In this document: positions 21,001 through 24,000 of the stretch, piece by piece | Layout of the letters: each line of letters begins with the position of its first letter | Numbering within the stretch: the stretch's first letter is position 1 | Assembly (NCBI RefSeq): GCF_053078305.1 | Contig: NZ_CP166879.1 | Reading direction: 5' to 3' (one strand) | DNA: 64,000 nucleotides | Position numbers: made by a program

Positions 21001-24000
21001 GAGGGGCGATTTGCGTCTTTTGGGTGATTTTCTGTCTTCATACCGGCAGCATAAGCCGGGAATTTTCAGGGCGGGTTTTGCGGGATTTCAGGAAGTATTT
21101 TCAGGGAAAAATGCAAAGGCGCTTCACGCAGATTTTAAAGCCCGTTAAATACAGGTTAGAAAATCACGACACGCGCCTGAAGGGGGTAAGGTAATGCATT
21201 TGCATACCTTAAACAATTAAGGCGTTTCTGTGGCCTTTTTAAAGCGTTTTCTGATTTCGTCCATGATCTCCTGCTCTGCCACCTGATCAAAGCCCATATA
21301 CGGACGTGCACCAATGGCCGCCGGTCCAGGCGGCATACCTGGCAGGCCACCCCACTGATGAATGGCCGCATAAGGCTCATTTGATCCAATCAGCGCCCAG
21401 GTATCTCCATAATCCGTGGTCAGGCGTCGGGCCAGATCGCCGTTCAGCGTCAGGATTTTGCCGGGCATGTATCCCTTACGGGTACGCCACTTGCGGTAAG
21501 GATCTGACCAGTCATGCCAGCGTTCGCCGTCCGGCTCTTTTTCCTGTTCAAACGCCATTTCTGACGATGACAGAAGACTCGCCGCCACACTGCGGGCCAG
21601 GTCTTTTCCACCACCCACAAACTGAAGCCGGGCAAAGACCCGCTGGAGACGCGTAACGTCAACAACGACAGCGGCATCAATGGATGACATATTGCCTCCG
21701 TGAAACTACCTGGTTAAAATAAAAGCAGGTCGGTGTACTCTTAACTGGTAAAGCGGCACCTGAGGGATATCTTCACCCGAAGGATGTTTATGTGGGTTCG
21801 ACCCCCACCACCGACTTACAATTTCCCTTCGAGGATCTCCATCTTACCTCCCTGAACAGCATCAATCAGAGTATTCCTGCTCACTCTATAGGCATTAATC
21901 ACCACATCCAGCTTATCCGGCTGACGTTTCACACTATAAGGCGCATTGACGGCAATCTTTGCCGTTCCGTCACGGGTTTCAGTGATGTAAAGCAAGTTCT
22001 GATGGACATGATCCCACAGCACGGCATCGGGGGCAGCCAGCATGGCGGGAAACTGCGCGAAATCCTCCGGCGTCAGGGCGATACCGTCATTCTGATGTTT
22101 CACGCTGTCCGCATGGAGCACATTTTTACCGCTCATCGCCAGCAGGCGGGCCGGTGGCGTTCCCGTCCGGCTTTCCACCGCCTGCGCAATACTTTCGGTC
22201 ATAAAGCCCAGCGTGCGGATATCGTTACCGCCTCGCCGGGTTTTCATGATGTTTTTTGCCCAGATGCGGAACGCCAGCTGCCGCTCCGGGCTGTTGTTCA
22301 TCTCCTGAACCACCATTTCCCGTAACGCCGGGCTTTTCACCTCGATCAGTTTACGGATCAGCGCCTGGTCTGTGCCGAACGCCGCCGAACCGGGGTTATA
22401 TGACCAGCCCACATCCGGTGTCATGGTTCTGGTGCCATCTGAATATGTGGTCACCGGCATTTCTCTGACTTCCCCGGTCTGCTTATCCACGCCAGCCTCA
22501 ACATTGCGGGTGGAGAGATGATCCTGACCGGATGAAACAGACAGCCCCATCGCATCCAGACGGGCCTGAGACAATGGCCGGACACGGCAGCGGCAGTTCC
22601 AGCCATTGGGCGGGTAGTGTGTTTTCCAGAACGGATCGTCATAGCGGAATACCAGCCCGTTAAGGGCGGAATGCGCCGGGCGGGTGCGGCTGTCCATCAC
22701 CGCCACATACTGCCAGAACGGATGCGTGTCCGTGTTGTTCATCATCTGCGTGTAACGCCCGGCATTGTAAGCCACGCGGGTGTTCACGTTGTAAATCAGC
22801 GCCAGACGGCGGGGACTGCCCAGCTGCACTTCTTCTGCGTTACCAGCGCTGTCCACCACAATCTGCTTTCCCCACCATCCCAGCTTTTGCAGGCGGGGGG
22901 TCAGTGTGCGGATAAATGCTTTCTGTGAAATCCCCTCATCAATAGCCCGTTGCACTTCCGCCTGTAGTGTAGTCAGTACGTCCAGGCGTGCCGCTTTTGC
23001 CGCCGTGAATGAACGGGCATGAACATCCGCGTCTGTTTCGAACCAGTTCCAGCTGATATGCGCCCCTTTGGCGCGGAAGTATGCCACCGCCTCTTTTGAG
23101 GGAAGGGTGGCGGCATAACCTAAATCAATCCCCTGTGCCATCCAGCATCCCCTTCATTTCCGCAGCAAACATGGCATCACTGAGCAGCGTCATCAGGCGG
23201 GAATCATCCATTTCACGGTAAAGGGCGGGCAGGTCTGCCAGTGCCTCCGCCAGCCCCCGCGTTCTGATGGCATCAATGACCGGCTCCAGTAGCGGGTCGA
23301 TGGCCTCCTGTAACCGGCGGGCAGGCACCGCATCCCCCATGTCGTCCAGTTCATCACGGGGGCTGCTTTTCGCTTCCGGCAGTCTGGCAGCCAGCGCTGT
23401 CTGCTCTGTCTTCTCCTGTTTTTCCGGTGGCATCTCTTTGTCTGTCTGAGCAGGTTCATTTCCACTCTGACGGACACGGAAGATGGCTTCACCGGGCGTG
23501 GGCTGCGGAATACCGGTCTGCTCCCTTATCCAGGGATCAGGAATATCCATCCCCGTACTGAGCTGCATCACCGCACTGGTGATTTTGGTGATATCCCCCG
23601 GCTCTTTTGTCTGGAAACAGATACGCGGCAGGCGACGGATATCAATGGCGTGGGCGGTGTTCAGGGCATACAGCGGATACACCAGATCGCGGTTCAGCGT
23701 GGCGGCCAGCTGGCGTAAATCAGAATCCCTGATTTCCCGGCGCACCTCGTTATGCACTTCACCCAGCGAGCGCGCGCCTTTGTCTCCGGCTTCCGTGGTC
23801 AGCGTGCCGCCGAGTATTGCTTTGGAGATGGAACGCTCCCCCCACGAAATCATGGTTTCAAACGGATCGGCCTGACCGTTCGCGGCTGCCTGAAACTCCA
23901 GCGACATCCCGGCCGGGATGATCCCGCCTGTACGTCGCCCGATATCCATCACCGCCCGCATCAGGGCGCTTTTCTGCTCCGGTGTTGCCCCGGACGGGTA

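What the first reader, a model, noticed from the sequence alone, without database searches (positions are those of the whole stretch)
21691..21815. tRNA-like structure in the intergenic gap between the Mu F-like and G-like head genes
On the plus strand (antisense to the late operon) GTCGGTG (21725) pairs with CACCGAC (21805-21811). Immediately 5' of the latter is a 5-bp stem GTGGG/CCCAC with a 7-nt loop TTCGACC, the acceptor-stem/T-arm geometry of a tRNA, and an AACTGGTA D-loop-like stretch is present. The anticodon region does not fold cleanly; the 87-nt length fits a class II tRNA or a degenerate tRNA-like element. On the sense strand the same pairing would form a multi-hairpin structure between two head genes.
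Basis: seen in the sequence. Interest (0 to 1): 0.4.

Follow-up and report, generated by a model that had tools for sequence, protein, structure and literature searches.

The report
Anticodon-less tRNA-like gene of Mu-like phages
A small gene set backwards between two head genes of a Mu-like prophage encodes an RNA shaped like a tRNA but with no anticodon; it is kept, with its own promoter, in many related phages and in a satellite-like island, and its job is unknown.

Summary
Window 21729-21816 (+) folds as acceptor, D and T arms with every tRNA elbow nucleotide. A capped hairpin replaces the anticodon arm.

It is not chance or a relic. A homologue lies at the same spot, always antisense to F, in 64 of 80 F-homologue loci down to 41% F identity. 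13 of 16 pairs show compensatory changes and 96.7% of cells are paired. 58 G.U against 7 A.C cells identify the + strand as the RNA strand.

A sigma-70-type promoter precedes it in 38 of 55 variants (1.4% of controls). One subfamily adds an intrinsic terminator. Phage Mu has no gap and no element.

It cannot decode:
- None of 45 distinct arms has a 7-nt loop; UNCG and GNRA tetraloops are common.
- No CCA is encoded.
- Position -1 pairs with "73".
- A 3-nt UAC linker precedes the D stem.

Copies also occur as tandem arrays ending a Mor-encoding satellite-like island, and beside a candidate defence gene.

Best reading: a stand-alone, prophage-expressed, non-decoding tRNA-shaped RNA acting through its tRNA body. 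The gene and fold are well supported. The target and mechanism are inferred. RefSeq calls it "tRNA-OTHER". I found no Rfam family or paper.

The parts
21692..21697 (+). -35-like hexamer TTGCCT. It overlaps the complement of the Shine-Dalgarno sequence of G (CCTCC at 21695-21699).
   Evidence: Part of the only promoter-like site found in 21400-22300. TTGCCY, TTGAAC or TTGACT sits at 16-18 nt spacing in relatives.
21715..21720 (+). -10 hexamer TAAAAT, 17 nt after the -35 hexamer and 8 nt before G1.
   Evidence: It is unchanged in all the E. coli-group variants and replaced by TATACT, TATAAT, TAAATT or TATAGT in distant ones.
21727..21728 (+). Predicted start of the transcript (A-2, G-1). These bases pair with 21817 and 21816 and lengthen the closing stem to 9 bp.
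   Evidence: -1:73 is paired in 42 of 55 variants (GC 20, AU 12, GU 5, UA 3, CG 1, UG 1) and -2:74 in 37 of 55. RNAalifold recovers the -1:73 pair de novo. The transcription start is inferred from the -10 spacing, not measured.
21729..21735 (+). Acceptor-type stem, 5' strand, GTCGGTG.
   Evidence: Six of these seven pairs show double changes.
21736..21738 (+). Three-nucleotide linker U8-A9-C. Canonical tRNAs have two nucleotides here.
   Evidence: One search shows the inserted c. Across 55 variants U8 is kept in 50, A9 in 47 and the extra C in 49.
21739..21754 (+). D arm: stem TCTT/AAGC (U.C mismatch at 10:25) and loop AACTGGTA carrying A14, A15, G18, G19, U20 and A21.
   Evidence: Three of the four D-stem pairs covary. 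A15, G18, G19, U20 and A21 are invariant in 55 of 55 variants.
21755..21788 (+). Hairpin in place of the anticodon arm: base GGCA/UGUU, CCU/AGG, tandem G.A/A.G, GGG/CCC, and a 9-nt loop AUAUCUUCA.
   Evidence: Length and sequence are hypervariable, but every variant forms a hairpin. The base of the arm covaries (CG 29/UA 21; GC 26/AU 15).
21789..21791 (+). Short variable region UAU. The last U would pair with A15 as a Levitt-type pair.
   Evidence: Across 55 variants the three positions are kept in 55, 51 and 53. The tertiary pairing is inferred from general tRNA knowledge.
21792..21808 (+). T arm: GTGGG / TTCGACC / CCCAC.
   Evidence: Four of five pairs covary. U54, U55, C56 and C61 are kept in 55 of 55 variants, A58 in 54 and G53 in 53.
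21809..21815 (+). Acceptor-type stem, 3' strand, CACCGAC.
21816..21817 (+). Positions 73-74 (UU). They pair with -1 and -2, no CCA follows, and they overlap the stop codon of F (TTA at 21816-21818 is TAA on the - strand).
21816..23141 (-). Context: Mu F-like minor head protein gene (Phage_Mu_F + MuF_C domains).
21217..21690 (-). Context: Mu G-like virion morphogenesis gene (Phage_tail_S).

Best explanation
It is a stand-alone gene for a non-decoding, tRNA-shaped small RNA of about 90 nt, an 'RNA moron' carried by one branch of Mu-like phages.

Well supported by the analyses here:
- The RNA strand is the one antisense to the late head operon and co-oriented with the repressor gene.
- It folds into a four-way junction with acceptor-type, D and T helices.
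- It keeps every nucleotide that builds the tRNA elbow and core.
- The anticodon arm is replaced by a capped hairpin of variable length.
- A sigma-70-type promoter sits just upstream. In one subfamily an intrinsic terminator sits just downstream.

Inferred:
- The host RNA polymerase makes it constitutively, so it is present in lysogens.
- Where it is single, transcription starts at or within a few nucleotides of the closing stem. That stem is lengthened to 8-9 bp by pairing of -1/-2 with 73/74, which gives a stable RNA with buried ends.
- Where copies are tandem, host tRNA-processing nucleases must separate them.
- Only the tRNA body is conserved. The acceptor sequence, position 73 and the distal arm all vary freely. 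So it most likely works by being recognised as a tRNA body, that is, as a mimic or decoy for a protein that reads tRNA shape.
- The setting is probably phage-host or phage-phage/satellite conflict. It does not work by decoding or by a fixed aminoacylation identity.
For: Structure and strand:
- Rfam tRNA hit at 21729-21816 (+).
- 96.7% of cells paired, 13 of 16 pairs compensated, 0 of 500 shuffles reach this.
- The same structure holds on a MAFFT alignment that was not fitted to it, and RNAalifold finds it de novo.
- 58 G.U against 7 A.C cells, and invariant A15, G18, G19, U20, A21, U54, U55, C56 and C61.

Non-decoding:
- 45 distinct arms have apical loops of 3-10 nt, never 7. UUCG occurs 7 times, GCAA 4 and UCCG 2.
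- ARAGORN finds nothing in 24 other loci that carry the element, nor in the window's gap.
- No CCA is encoded and -1:73 covaries.

Independent gene:
- The promoter is the only one found in 900 nt of the window.
- 38 of 55 variants match at 9 of 12 or better, against 1.4% of 1100 control windows.
- Terminators follow directly in L091, L095, L127, L130, L124, L147 and L137.

Insertion relative to Mu:
- F and G overlap by 4 nt in Mu.
- 13 element-free loci have a gap of 12 nt or less.
- 64 of 80 F loci carry the element at one fixed place and strand. These include Pasteurella phage Pmp9, at 52.6 bits with a fully compensated acceptor stem.

Other evidence:
- It is co-oriented with the repressor-like ORF at 38400-39005 (+), while all lytic genes are on the - strand.
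- It works outside the antisense setting. Tandem arrays of 2-3 copies end a Mor-encoding satellite-like island in 88 of 5426 E. coli genomes. One copy leads a candidate defence gene, PDC-S31, in a variable cargo slot.
Against: - No expression, end-mapping or binding data were available. The promoter, the start site and lysogenic expression are predictions.
- No target is known.
- A single-copy decoy would have to compete with a very large cellular tRNA pool.
- The single-sequence fold energy is not better than shuffles.
- The -1:73 and -2:74 pairing is unlike RNase P substrates, yet the arrays imply tRNA-type processing. Maturation may therefore differ between contexts.
- In E. coli lineages no terminator follows, so transcription must run antisense into F. 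A cis-antisense effect cannot be excluded.
- Phage Mu lives without it, so it is accessory.
Confidence: 0.45

Rival explanations
1. Cis-antisense or transcriptional-interference module. A constitutive promoter fires against the late operon and makes RNA complementary to the 3' end of F, silencing leaky late expression in lysogens. In this reading the tRNA-like fold is only a stabilising or processing cap at the 5' end.
For: In nearly all phage loci the element is antisense to F and starts 2-40 nt from its stop codon. E. coli lineages have no terminator within 500 nt. The 5' end is predicted to be buried in the stem.
Against: One whole subfamily terminates right after the element. The arrays in the satellite-like island and the cargo-slot copies are antisense to nothing. 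A stabilising hairpin would not need invariant D-loop and T-loop elbow nucleotides.
Confidence: 0.2
2. An aminoacylatable but non-decoding tRNA-like RNA, like the tmRNA tRNA-like domain or plant-virus tRNA-like structures. It would be matured by RNase P and 3' trimming, receive CCA from the CCA-adding enzyme, and be charged to donate or sequester an amino acid or EF-Tu.
For: The top half is intact. Array copies are preceded by U runs and separated by short spacers, like tRNA clusters. The terminator subfamily has a 7-bp stem with an unpaired A after it.
Against: No identity set is conserved. Pair 1:72 is G-C, U-A, C-G or A-U. Pair 3:70 is never G.U. Position 73 is U, C, A or G and usually pairs with -1. 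CCA is never encoded.
Confidence: 0.1
3. A DNA-level site. The tRNA-like gene would serve as a recombination or attachment site, or as the fixed border of an accessory-gene hotspot, as true tRNA genes do for integrases.
For: Homology between L134 and L150 breaks about 27 nt after the element, and different cargo follows. The arrays sit at the very end of an island next to chromosomal dinD, and copy number varies from 2 to 3. A degenerate copy lies beside an integrase gene in E. coli Ch1.
Against: Compensatory changes and G.U pairs show selection on RNA pairing, not on a duplex DNA sequence. None of the F-G junctions examined here carries an integrated element, apart from one IS3 next to the element. 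The conserved promoter has no role in this model.
Confidence: 0.1
4. A genuine decoding tRNA (class II or unusual), or a decaying tRNA pseudogene. This is the first reader's reading, and it is what the PGAP labels 'tRNA-OTHER' and 'tRNA-Tyr' imply.
For: Rfam tRNA scores 30.0 bits against a gathering score of 29 in the window, and 31.8 bits in L079. RefSeq annotates it as tRNA-OTHER or tRNA-Tyr. True phage tRNA-Ser and tRNA-Asn genes score 23-42 bits with the family model.
Against: There is no 7-nt loop or anticodon in any arm, and only one hairpin between the D and T arms. ARAGORN finds nothing in 24 other loci that carry the element, and only 1 of 20 loci reaches the Rfam gathering score. A pseudogene would not keep 96.7% pairing with 115 doubly changed cells across hosts whose F proteins are 41% identical.
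Confidence: 0.04
5. A structure of the late mRNA (sense strand) between F and G that controls processing, stability or translational coupling.
For: The complement of a cloverleaf is also a multi-hairpin (-34 kcal/mol). G has its own Shine-Dalgarno sequence instead of the ATGA overlap seen in Mu.
Against: 58 G.U cells would become C.A mismatches on the sense strand, giving 86.2% paired against 92.0%. Loop sequences match the tRNA consensus only on the + strand. The promoter faces the other way. The arrays and cargo-slot copies lie outside any F-G mRNA.
Confidence: 0.03

Closest known systems
Canonical bacterial and phage tRNA (Rfam RF00005)
   Same: Acceptor, D and T helices. The elbow and core nucleotides are U8, A14, A15:U48, G18, G19, A21, U54, U55, C56 and A58. 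It has promoter-gene-terminator organisation, or tandem clusters.
   Different: No anticodon loop, no encoded CCA, -1 pairs with 73, a 3-nt linker before the D stem, and no conserved identity elements. ARAGORN and the Rfam gathering threshold mostly miss it.
tRNA-like domain of tmRNA (SsrA). From my own knowledge, tmRNA's tRNA function affects Mu prophage induction (Ranquet et al. 2001).
   Same: A tRNA top half without an anticodon, in a non-decoding RNA.
   Different: tmRNA has G3.U70 and CCA, is charged with alanine, lacks a D stem and carries a tag reading frame. None of that is present here, and ARAGORN reports no tmRNA.
YrlA bacterial Y RNAs with a tRNA-like module (own knowledge: Chen et al. 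2014)
   Same: A non-coding RNA whose conserved part mimics the tRNA body. Some are phage-encoded.
   Different: In YrlA the RNA ends form the Ro/Rsr-binding stem and the gene lies next to rsr. Here the ends form the acceptor-type stem, no rsr gene is nearby, and no Rfam Y RNA family hits at E up to 10.
Bacillus cereus 'tRNA-Other' pseudo-tRNA (own knowledge: Ataide et al. 2005; Rogers et al. 2012)
   Same: A tRNA-like small RNA of undetermined decoding role, flagged by tRNA finders as 'Other' and thought to be regulatory.
   Different: That RNA keeps an anticodon arm and is aminoacylated. It is chromosomal and from a Gram-positive host.
Phage 'morons', and the accessory slot next to gene G of Mu-like Pseudomonas phages that holds anti-CRISPR genes (own knowledge: Hendrix and colleagues; Bondy-Denomy et al. 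2013)
   Same: An extra transcription unit with its own promoter, and sometimes a terminator, inserted between late genes that are contiguous in relatives. It sits in the same neighbourhood of the head module.
   Different: The product is an RNA, not a protein. It is transcribed against the late operon and is far more conserved than typical morons.
C4 antisense RNA of P1/P7, and RNA anti-CRISPRs (Racr)
   Same: Small structured phage RNAs acting in immunity or conflict. From my own knowledge, C4 is matured by RNase P.
   Different: There is no sequence or structure similarity: no Rfam C4 hit, and the element is not a CRISPR-repeat mimic.

Membership tests
tRNA (RF00005) | Score at or above the curated threshold with tRNA detectors | tested here: inconclusive
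   The window scores 30.0 bits against a gathering score of 29. Only 1 of 20 related loci passes the gathering score. ARAGORN finds nothing in the window gap or in 24 related loci. PGAP labels are inconsistent: OTHER, Tyr or none.
tRNA (RF00005) | Acceptor, D and T helices plus elbow tertiary nucleotides | tested here: met
tRNA (RF00005) | 5-bp anticodon stem with a 7-nt loop carrying an anticodon | tested here: not met
   None of 45 distinct arms has a 7-nt loop. Tetraloops are common and arm length is 20-47 nt.
tRNA (RF00005) | Unpaired discriminator 73 followed by CCA (encoded in E. coli tRNA genes) | tested here: not met
   No CCA is encoded in any variant listed. -1:73 is paired in 42 of 55 variants with 4 Watson-Crick pair types.
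tRNA (RF00005) | Aminoacylation by a synthetase | not testable with these tools
   Sequence shows no conserved identity set. Charging itself needs an experiment.
   There is a single hairpin between the D and T arms, and most variants have only 20-27 nt there.
tmRNA | tRNA-like domain with G3.U70 and CCA, plus a tag reading frame | tested here: not met
   ARAGORN reports no tmRNA. Pair 3:70 is never G.U.
YrlA / Y RNA | Match to an Rfam Y RNA model, and a Ro/Rsr-binding stem formed by the RNA ends | tested here: not met
   No such Rfam hit at E up to 10. The ends form the acceptor-type stem.
Phage moron (autonomous accessory transcription unit) | Own promoter, with or without a terminator, inserted between genes that are contiguous in relatives | tested here: met
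   Promoter. Terminator in one subfamily. F and G overlap in Mu and in 13 IMG/VR loci.
Phage moron (autonomous accessory transcription unit) | Expressed from the repressed prophage | not testable with these tools
   Only orientation (same as the repressor) and the sigma-70 consensus match support it.

The most novel reading that the evidence does not exclude
The RNA is a conflict weapon: a tRNA-shaped decoy or cofactor made by Mu-like prophages and, in multiple copies, by satellite-like islands that share their Mor-type regulators. It would block, or be required by, a protein that recognises the tRNA body, such as a tRNA-targeting immune nuclease, a processing enzyme or a helper-phage factor. 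That would make it the first dedicated tRNA mimic in phage-host or phage-satellite warfare.
Probability: 0.2. Interest if true: 0.85.

Novelty: new variant of a known kind. Interest (0 to 1): 0.6.

Why it matters
- It defines a coherent RNA family with strong covariation that has no Rfam family of its own. I found no paper on it. The family has a fixed position in many Mu-like phages of enterobacteria and Pasteurellaceae, plus arrays in a satellite-like island.
- It explains a recurrent annotation artefact. RefSeq labels it 'tRNA-OTHER', and one array copy 'tRNA-Tyr', in hundreds of E. coli genomes.
- It gives a clean system for asking what a tRNA body without an anticodon is good for. The gene is intergenic, so it can be mutated without touching the F or G coding sequences.
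- Its association with a prophage accessory slot, with candidate defence genes and with a satellite-like island makes an RNA-based role in phage conflict directly testable.

Tried and rejected
- Anti-Shine-Dalgarno seed idea: the C/U-rich apical loops (CCUC, CUUC) looked like an anti-SD seed. I dropped this when relatives showed they are UNCG and GNRA tetraloops with no conserved loop sequence.
- RNA immunity factor for a MuF polymorphic toxin: F has only the Phage_Mu_F and MuF_C domains, and Mu has the same F without the RNA.
- Thermodynamic test on the single sequence: uninformative (z 0.29 and -0.48).
- A strict pattern scan of one genome per species found only Citrobacter braakii.
- Literature searches and two papers read turned up nothing on this element.
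- Extending the closing stem beyond -2:74: -3:75 pairs in only 25 of 55 variants, which is background, apart from lineage-specific long extensions such as L134 and L107/L108.
- Class II (tRNA-Ser) ancestry: true phage tRNA-Ser genes score 23-42 bits with the family model. I did not test this further.
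Full report
OBSERVATION

The 125-nt gap 21691-21815 lies between a Mu F-like gene (21816-23141, -) and a G-like gene (21217-21690, -) (Pfam Phage_Mu_F + MuF_C and Phage_tail_S).
- Closing stem GTCGGTG 21729-21735 with CACCGAC 21809-21815.
- T arm GTGGG/TTCGACC/CCCAC at 21792-21808.
- D loop AACTGGTA at 21743-21750.

The Rfam tRNA model matches 21729-21816 (+) at 30.0 bits (gathering score 29, E 4.4e-4), with a 26-nt insertion in place of the anticodon loop and one extra base before the D stem. ARAGORN finds only the three host tRNAs at 44013-44314. 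Single-sequence folding is no better than shuffles, so the case rests on comparison.

CONSERVATION AND COVARIATION

The spacer is present in 230 of 5426 complete E. coli genomes. PGAP annotates it, inconsistently, as 'tRNA-OTHER' at exactly these coordinates. Sp18 of O157:H7 Sakai is one carrier.

Thirteen distinct variants came from E. coli, IMG/VR and Citrobacter braakii. They already gave 95.2% pairing and 6 compensated pairs. I built a covariance model from them. It found the element in Pasteurella phage Pmp9, in the F-G gap on the antisense strand, with a completely different but fully paired acceptor stem (UGUUGCG/CGCAACA).

I then fetched 80 IMG/VR loci through an F-protein alignment, spanning 96% to 41% identity:
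- 60 carry a hit.
- 4 more carry a weak hit at the same place.
- In all 64 the hit is on the strand opposite F and starts within about 40 nt of the F stop codon.
- 13 element-free loci have F and G overlapping or no more than 12 nt apart, as in phage Mu itself, where they overlap by 4 nt.
- 3 loci are truncated.

So the element is an insertion that defines one branch of Mu-like phages.

On the 37 distinct hits, 96.7% of 582 cells are standard pairs. 13 of 16 pairs have double changes, in 115 cells. No shuffle in 500 reaches this, and sliding the partners gives 40-48% pairing. That alignment was fitted to the model, so I repeated the count on a plain MAFFT alignment of 55 distinct variants with flanks. 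The counts hold. RNAalifold recovers the closing stem, the base of the arm and the T stem de novo.

WHICH STRAND

In the 16 core pairs there are 58 G.U cells against 7 A.C cells, giving 92.0% pairing on the + strand and 86.2% on the late-mRNA strand. The following are each invariant in 55 of 55 variants: A15, G18, G19, U20, A21, U54, U55, C56 and C61. A58 is kept in 54, U48 in 53 and U8 in 50. From established tRNA structure, these are exactly the elbow and core contacts (G18-Psi55, G19-C56, U8-A14, 15-48, T54-A58). The selected molecule is therefore an RNA antisense to the late operon that adopts a tRNA L-shape.

WHAT IS NOT tRNA-LIKE

1. The region between the D and T arms is one hairpin of 20-47 nt. 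It usually has a 4-5 bp base, an A-rich internal loop, 3-4 G-C pairs and a small cap. The caps are UUCG (7 variants), GCAA (4), UCCG (2) and others. The window's variant has tandem G.A pairs and a 9-nt loop. No arm has a 7-nt loop. Its stems covary within lineages (for example L107, L108 and L117) and at the base.
2. A conserved 3-nt UAC linker precedes the D stem.
3. CCA is never encoded, and 'position 73' is not a free discriminator. It pairs with -1 in 42 of 55 variants (GC 20, AU 12, GU 5, UA 3, CG 1, UG 1). -2:74 pairs in 37 of 55, while -3:75 falls to background. Some lineages extend the stem to about 13-15 bp (L134, L107/L108).
4. The acceptor sequence is free. Pair 1:72 takes four pair types and pair 3:70 is never G.U. 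No aminoacylation identity is conserved.

A GENE OF ITS OWN

The only sigma-70-like site in 21400-22300 is TTGCCT-17-TAAAAT at 21692-21720 (+). It ends 8 nt before G1, and its -35 hexamer overlaps the complement of G's Shine-Dalgarno sequence.

Across the family the hexamers change but the site stays: TTGAAC-17-TATACT, TTGACT-17-TAAATT, TTGACA-18-TAAATT. 38 of 55 variants match at 9 of 12 or better within 60 nt upstream, against 1.4% of 1100 control windows. The -10 ends 5-17 nt before G1. In several lineages the predicted start coincides with the first base of the extended stem (window A-2; L134).

One subfamily has a clean intrinsic terminator 1-3 nt after the element, for example AAGCCCCGuuauuCGGGGCUUUGUUGUU. 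E. coli lineages have none, because the F stop codon abuts.

In the prophage all lytic genes are on the - strand. The repressor-like ORF (38400-39005) and the element are on the + strand. Expression in lysogens is therefore plausible but untested.

OTHER CONTEXTS

A family-wide DNA pattern found 59 IMG/VR and 30 metagenome loci. Most are again F-G antisense. There are three kinds of exception.

a) L134/L141 and L150. The element borders a variable cargo slot in a region encoding Mor and a gpT-type capsid protein. Homology between L134 and L150 ends about 27 nt after the element. The co-oriented cargo is a DUF2971 protein matching the PADLOC candidate PDC-S31 (E 1.6e-27) in one, and an unrelated 164-aa ORF in the other. 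A PDC-S06 protein (E 3.7e-179) lies nearby.

b) Tandem arrays of 2-3 anticodon-less copies (L158, L160, L170, L173) with one upstream promoter, 24-nt spacers and U runs before each copy. The same array occurs in 88 of 5426 E. coli genomes. It sits at the end of a satellite-like island (AntA/B, Icd-like, toprim, DUF927, PerC, Mor) next to dinD-yicG-ligB. PGAP calls the copies 'tRNA-OTHER' and 'tRNA-Tyr', while ARAGORN calls nothing. The island's Mor protein is 45% identical to the Mor of the related STEC2018-607 prophage.

c) A degenerate copy beside an integrase gene in E. coli Ch1.

These contexts show that the RNA is used where it is antisense to nothing, and that multi-copy transcripts must be cut apart by host nucleases.

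MECHANISM

Well supported: an independently promoted, structurally constrained, tRNA-shaped RNA that cannot decode.

Inferred: only the tRNA body is conserved, while the acceptor sequence, position 73 and the distal arm drift. The RNA therefore most likely acts by being recognised as a tRNA body, that is, as a mimic, decoy or cofactor for a shape-reading protein. The genomic company it keeps points to phage-host or phage-phage conflict: a prophage accessory position, co-orientation with the repressor, a defence-gene slot and the satellite-like island.

My confidence is about 0.9 for the gene and fold, about 0.35-0.4 for the mimic mechanism, and 0.45 for the combined statement.

Rivals, in order:
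- A cis-antisense or interference module with the fold as a cap (0.2).
- An aminoacylated non-decoding tRNA-like RNA (0.1).
- A DNA-level recombination or hotspot border (0.1).
- A true or decaying tRNA (0.04).
- A sense-mRNA structure (0.03).

COMPARISON WITH KNOWN SYSTEMS

The element shares the top half with tRNA but fails three defining tests: anticodon loop, free 73-CCA end and 2-nt linker. It lacks the hallmarks of tmRNA and YrlA, and no other Rfam family matches. In genome logic it behaves like a moron. From my own knowledge, it sits in the same head-module neighbourhood where Mu-like Pseudomonas phages keep anti-CRISPR genes.

I found no description in seven literature searches and two papers read. 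One survey mentions unnamed tRNA-like candidates in IMG/VR (PMC10690425).

VERDICT

This is a real, conserved and previously uncharacterised variant of tRNA-like RNA. Its function is open and it is experimentally tractable. Interest 0.6.

Noticed in passing
L158 1132-1433; L170 3846-4032; L160 10603-10799; L173 2094-2290; L187 9179-9374: Tandem arrays of 2-3 anticodon-less tRNA-like copies at the end of a satellite-like island (AntA/B, Icd-like, toprim, DUF927, PerC, Mor) next to chromosomal dinD. The array occurs in 88 of 5426 E. coli genomes. RefSeq labels one copy 'tRNA-Tyr', which looks like a mis-annotation: the loop is a 6-nt UGUACA on an extended arm, and ARAGORN finds nothing.
   Followed up: partly
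L134 2294-3765 (same in L141); L150 429-1055: The element borders a variable cargo slot. In L134 it leads a DUF2971 protein matching the PADLOC candidate defence gene PDC-S31. In L150 the cargo is a different 164-aa ORF. A PDC-S06 protein (786 aa, AAA_13) lies nearby, next to Mor and a gpT-type capsid gene.
   Followed up: partly
L163 1157-1503; L181 573-738; L026 1039-1113: True phage tRNA-Ser arrays and a tRNA-Asn score 23-42 bits with the family model. They share the G7-U8-A9-C motif and the 'UAUG + T arm' motif. This hints that the element descends from a phage tRNA, possibly class II.
   Followed up: no
L009 3994-4083 (E. coli Ch1): A degenerate copy (5 of 7 acceptor pairs) between an IS66 element and an integrase gene, in an island at tRNA-Phe, outside any Mu-like prophage.
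   Followed up: partly
L010 1681-2858 (E. coli O157:H7 Z1825): An IS3 element inserted about 20 nt after the 3' end of the tRNA-like gene. It splits F but leaves the RNA gene intact.
   Followed up: no
window 21042-21216: A 175-nt gap between the G-like and protease (I-like) genes. In phage Mu the equivalent gap holds the annotated gyrase cut site. I did not analyse it here.
   Followed up: no
window 44013-44314: Host tRNA cluster Leu(TAA)-Cys(GCA)-Gly(GCC) on the - strand, outside the prophage. It looks ordinary.
   Followed up: no
window 1-39257 compared with L120: The window's prophage is a mosaic relative of the STEC2018-607 prophage (84-96% identity in blocks) and is inserted at a different chromosomal site. 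Yet the 221-nt query spanning the F-G spacer (21650-21870) is 100% identical in five genomes.
   Followed up: partly
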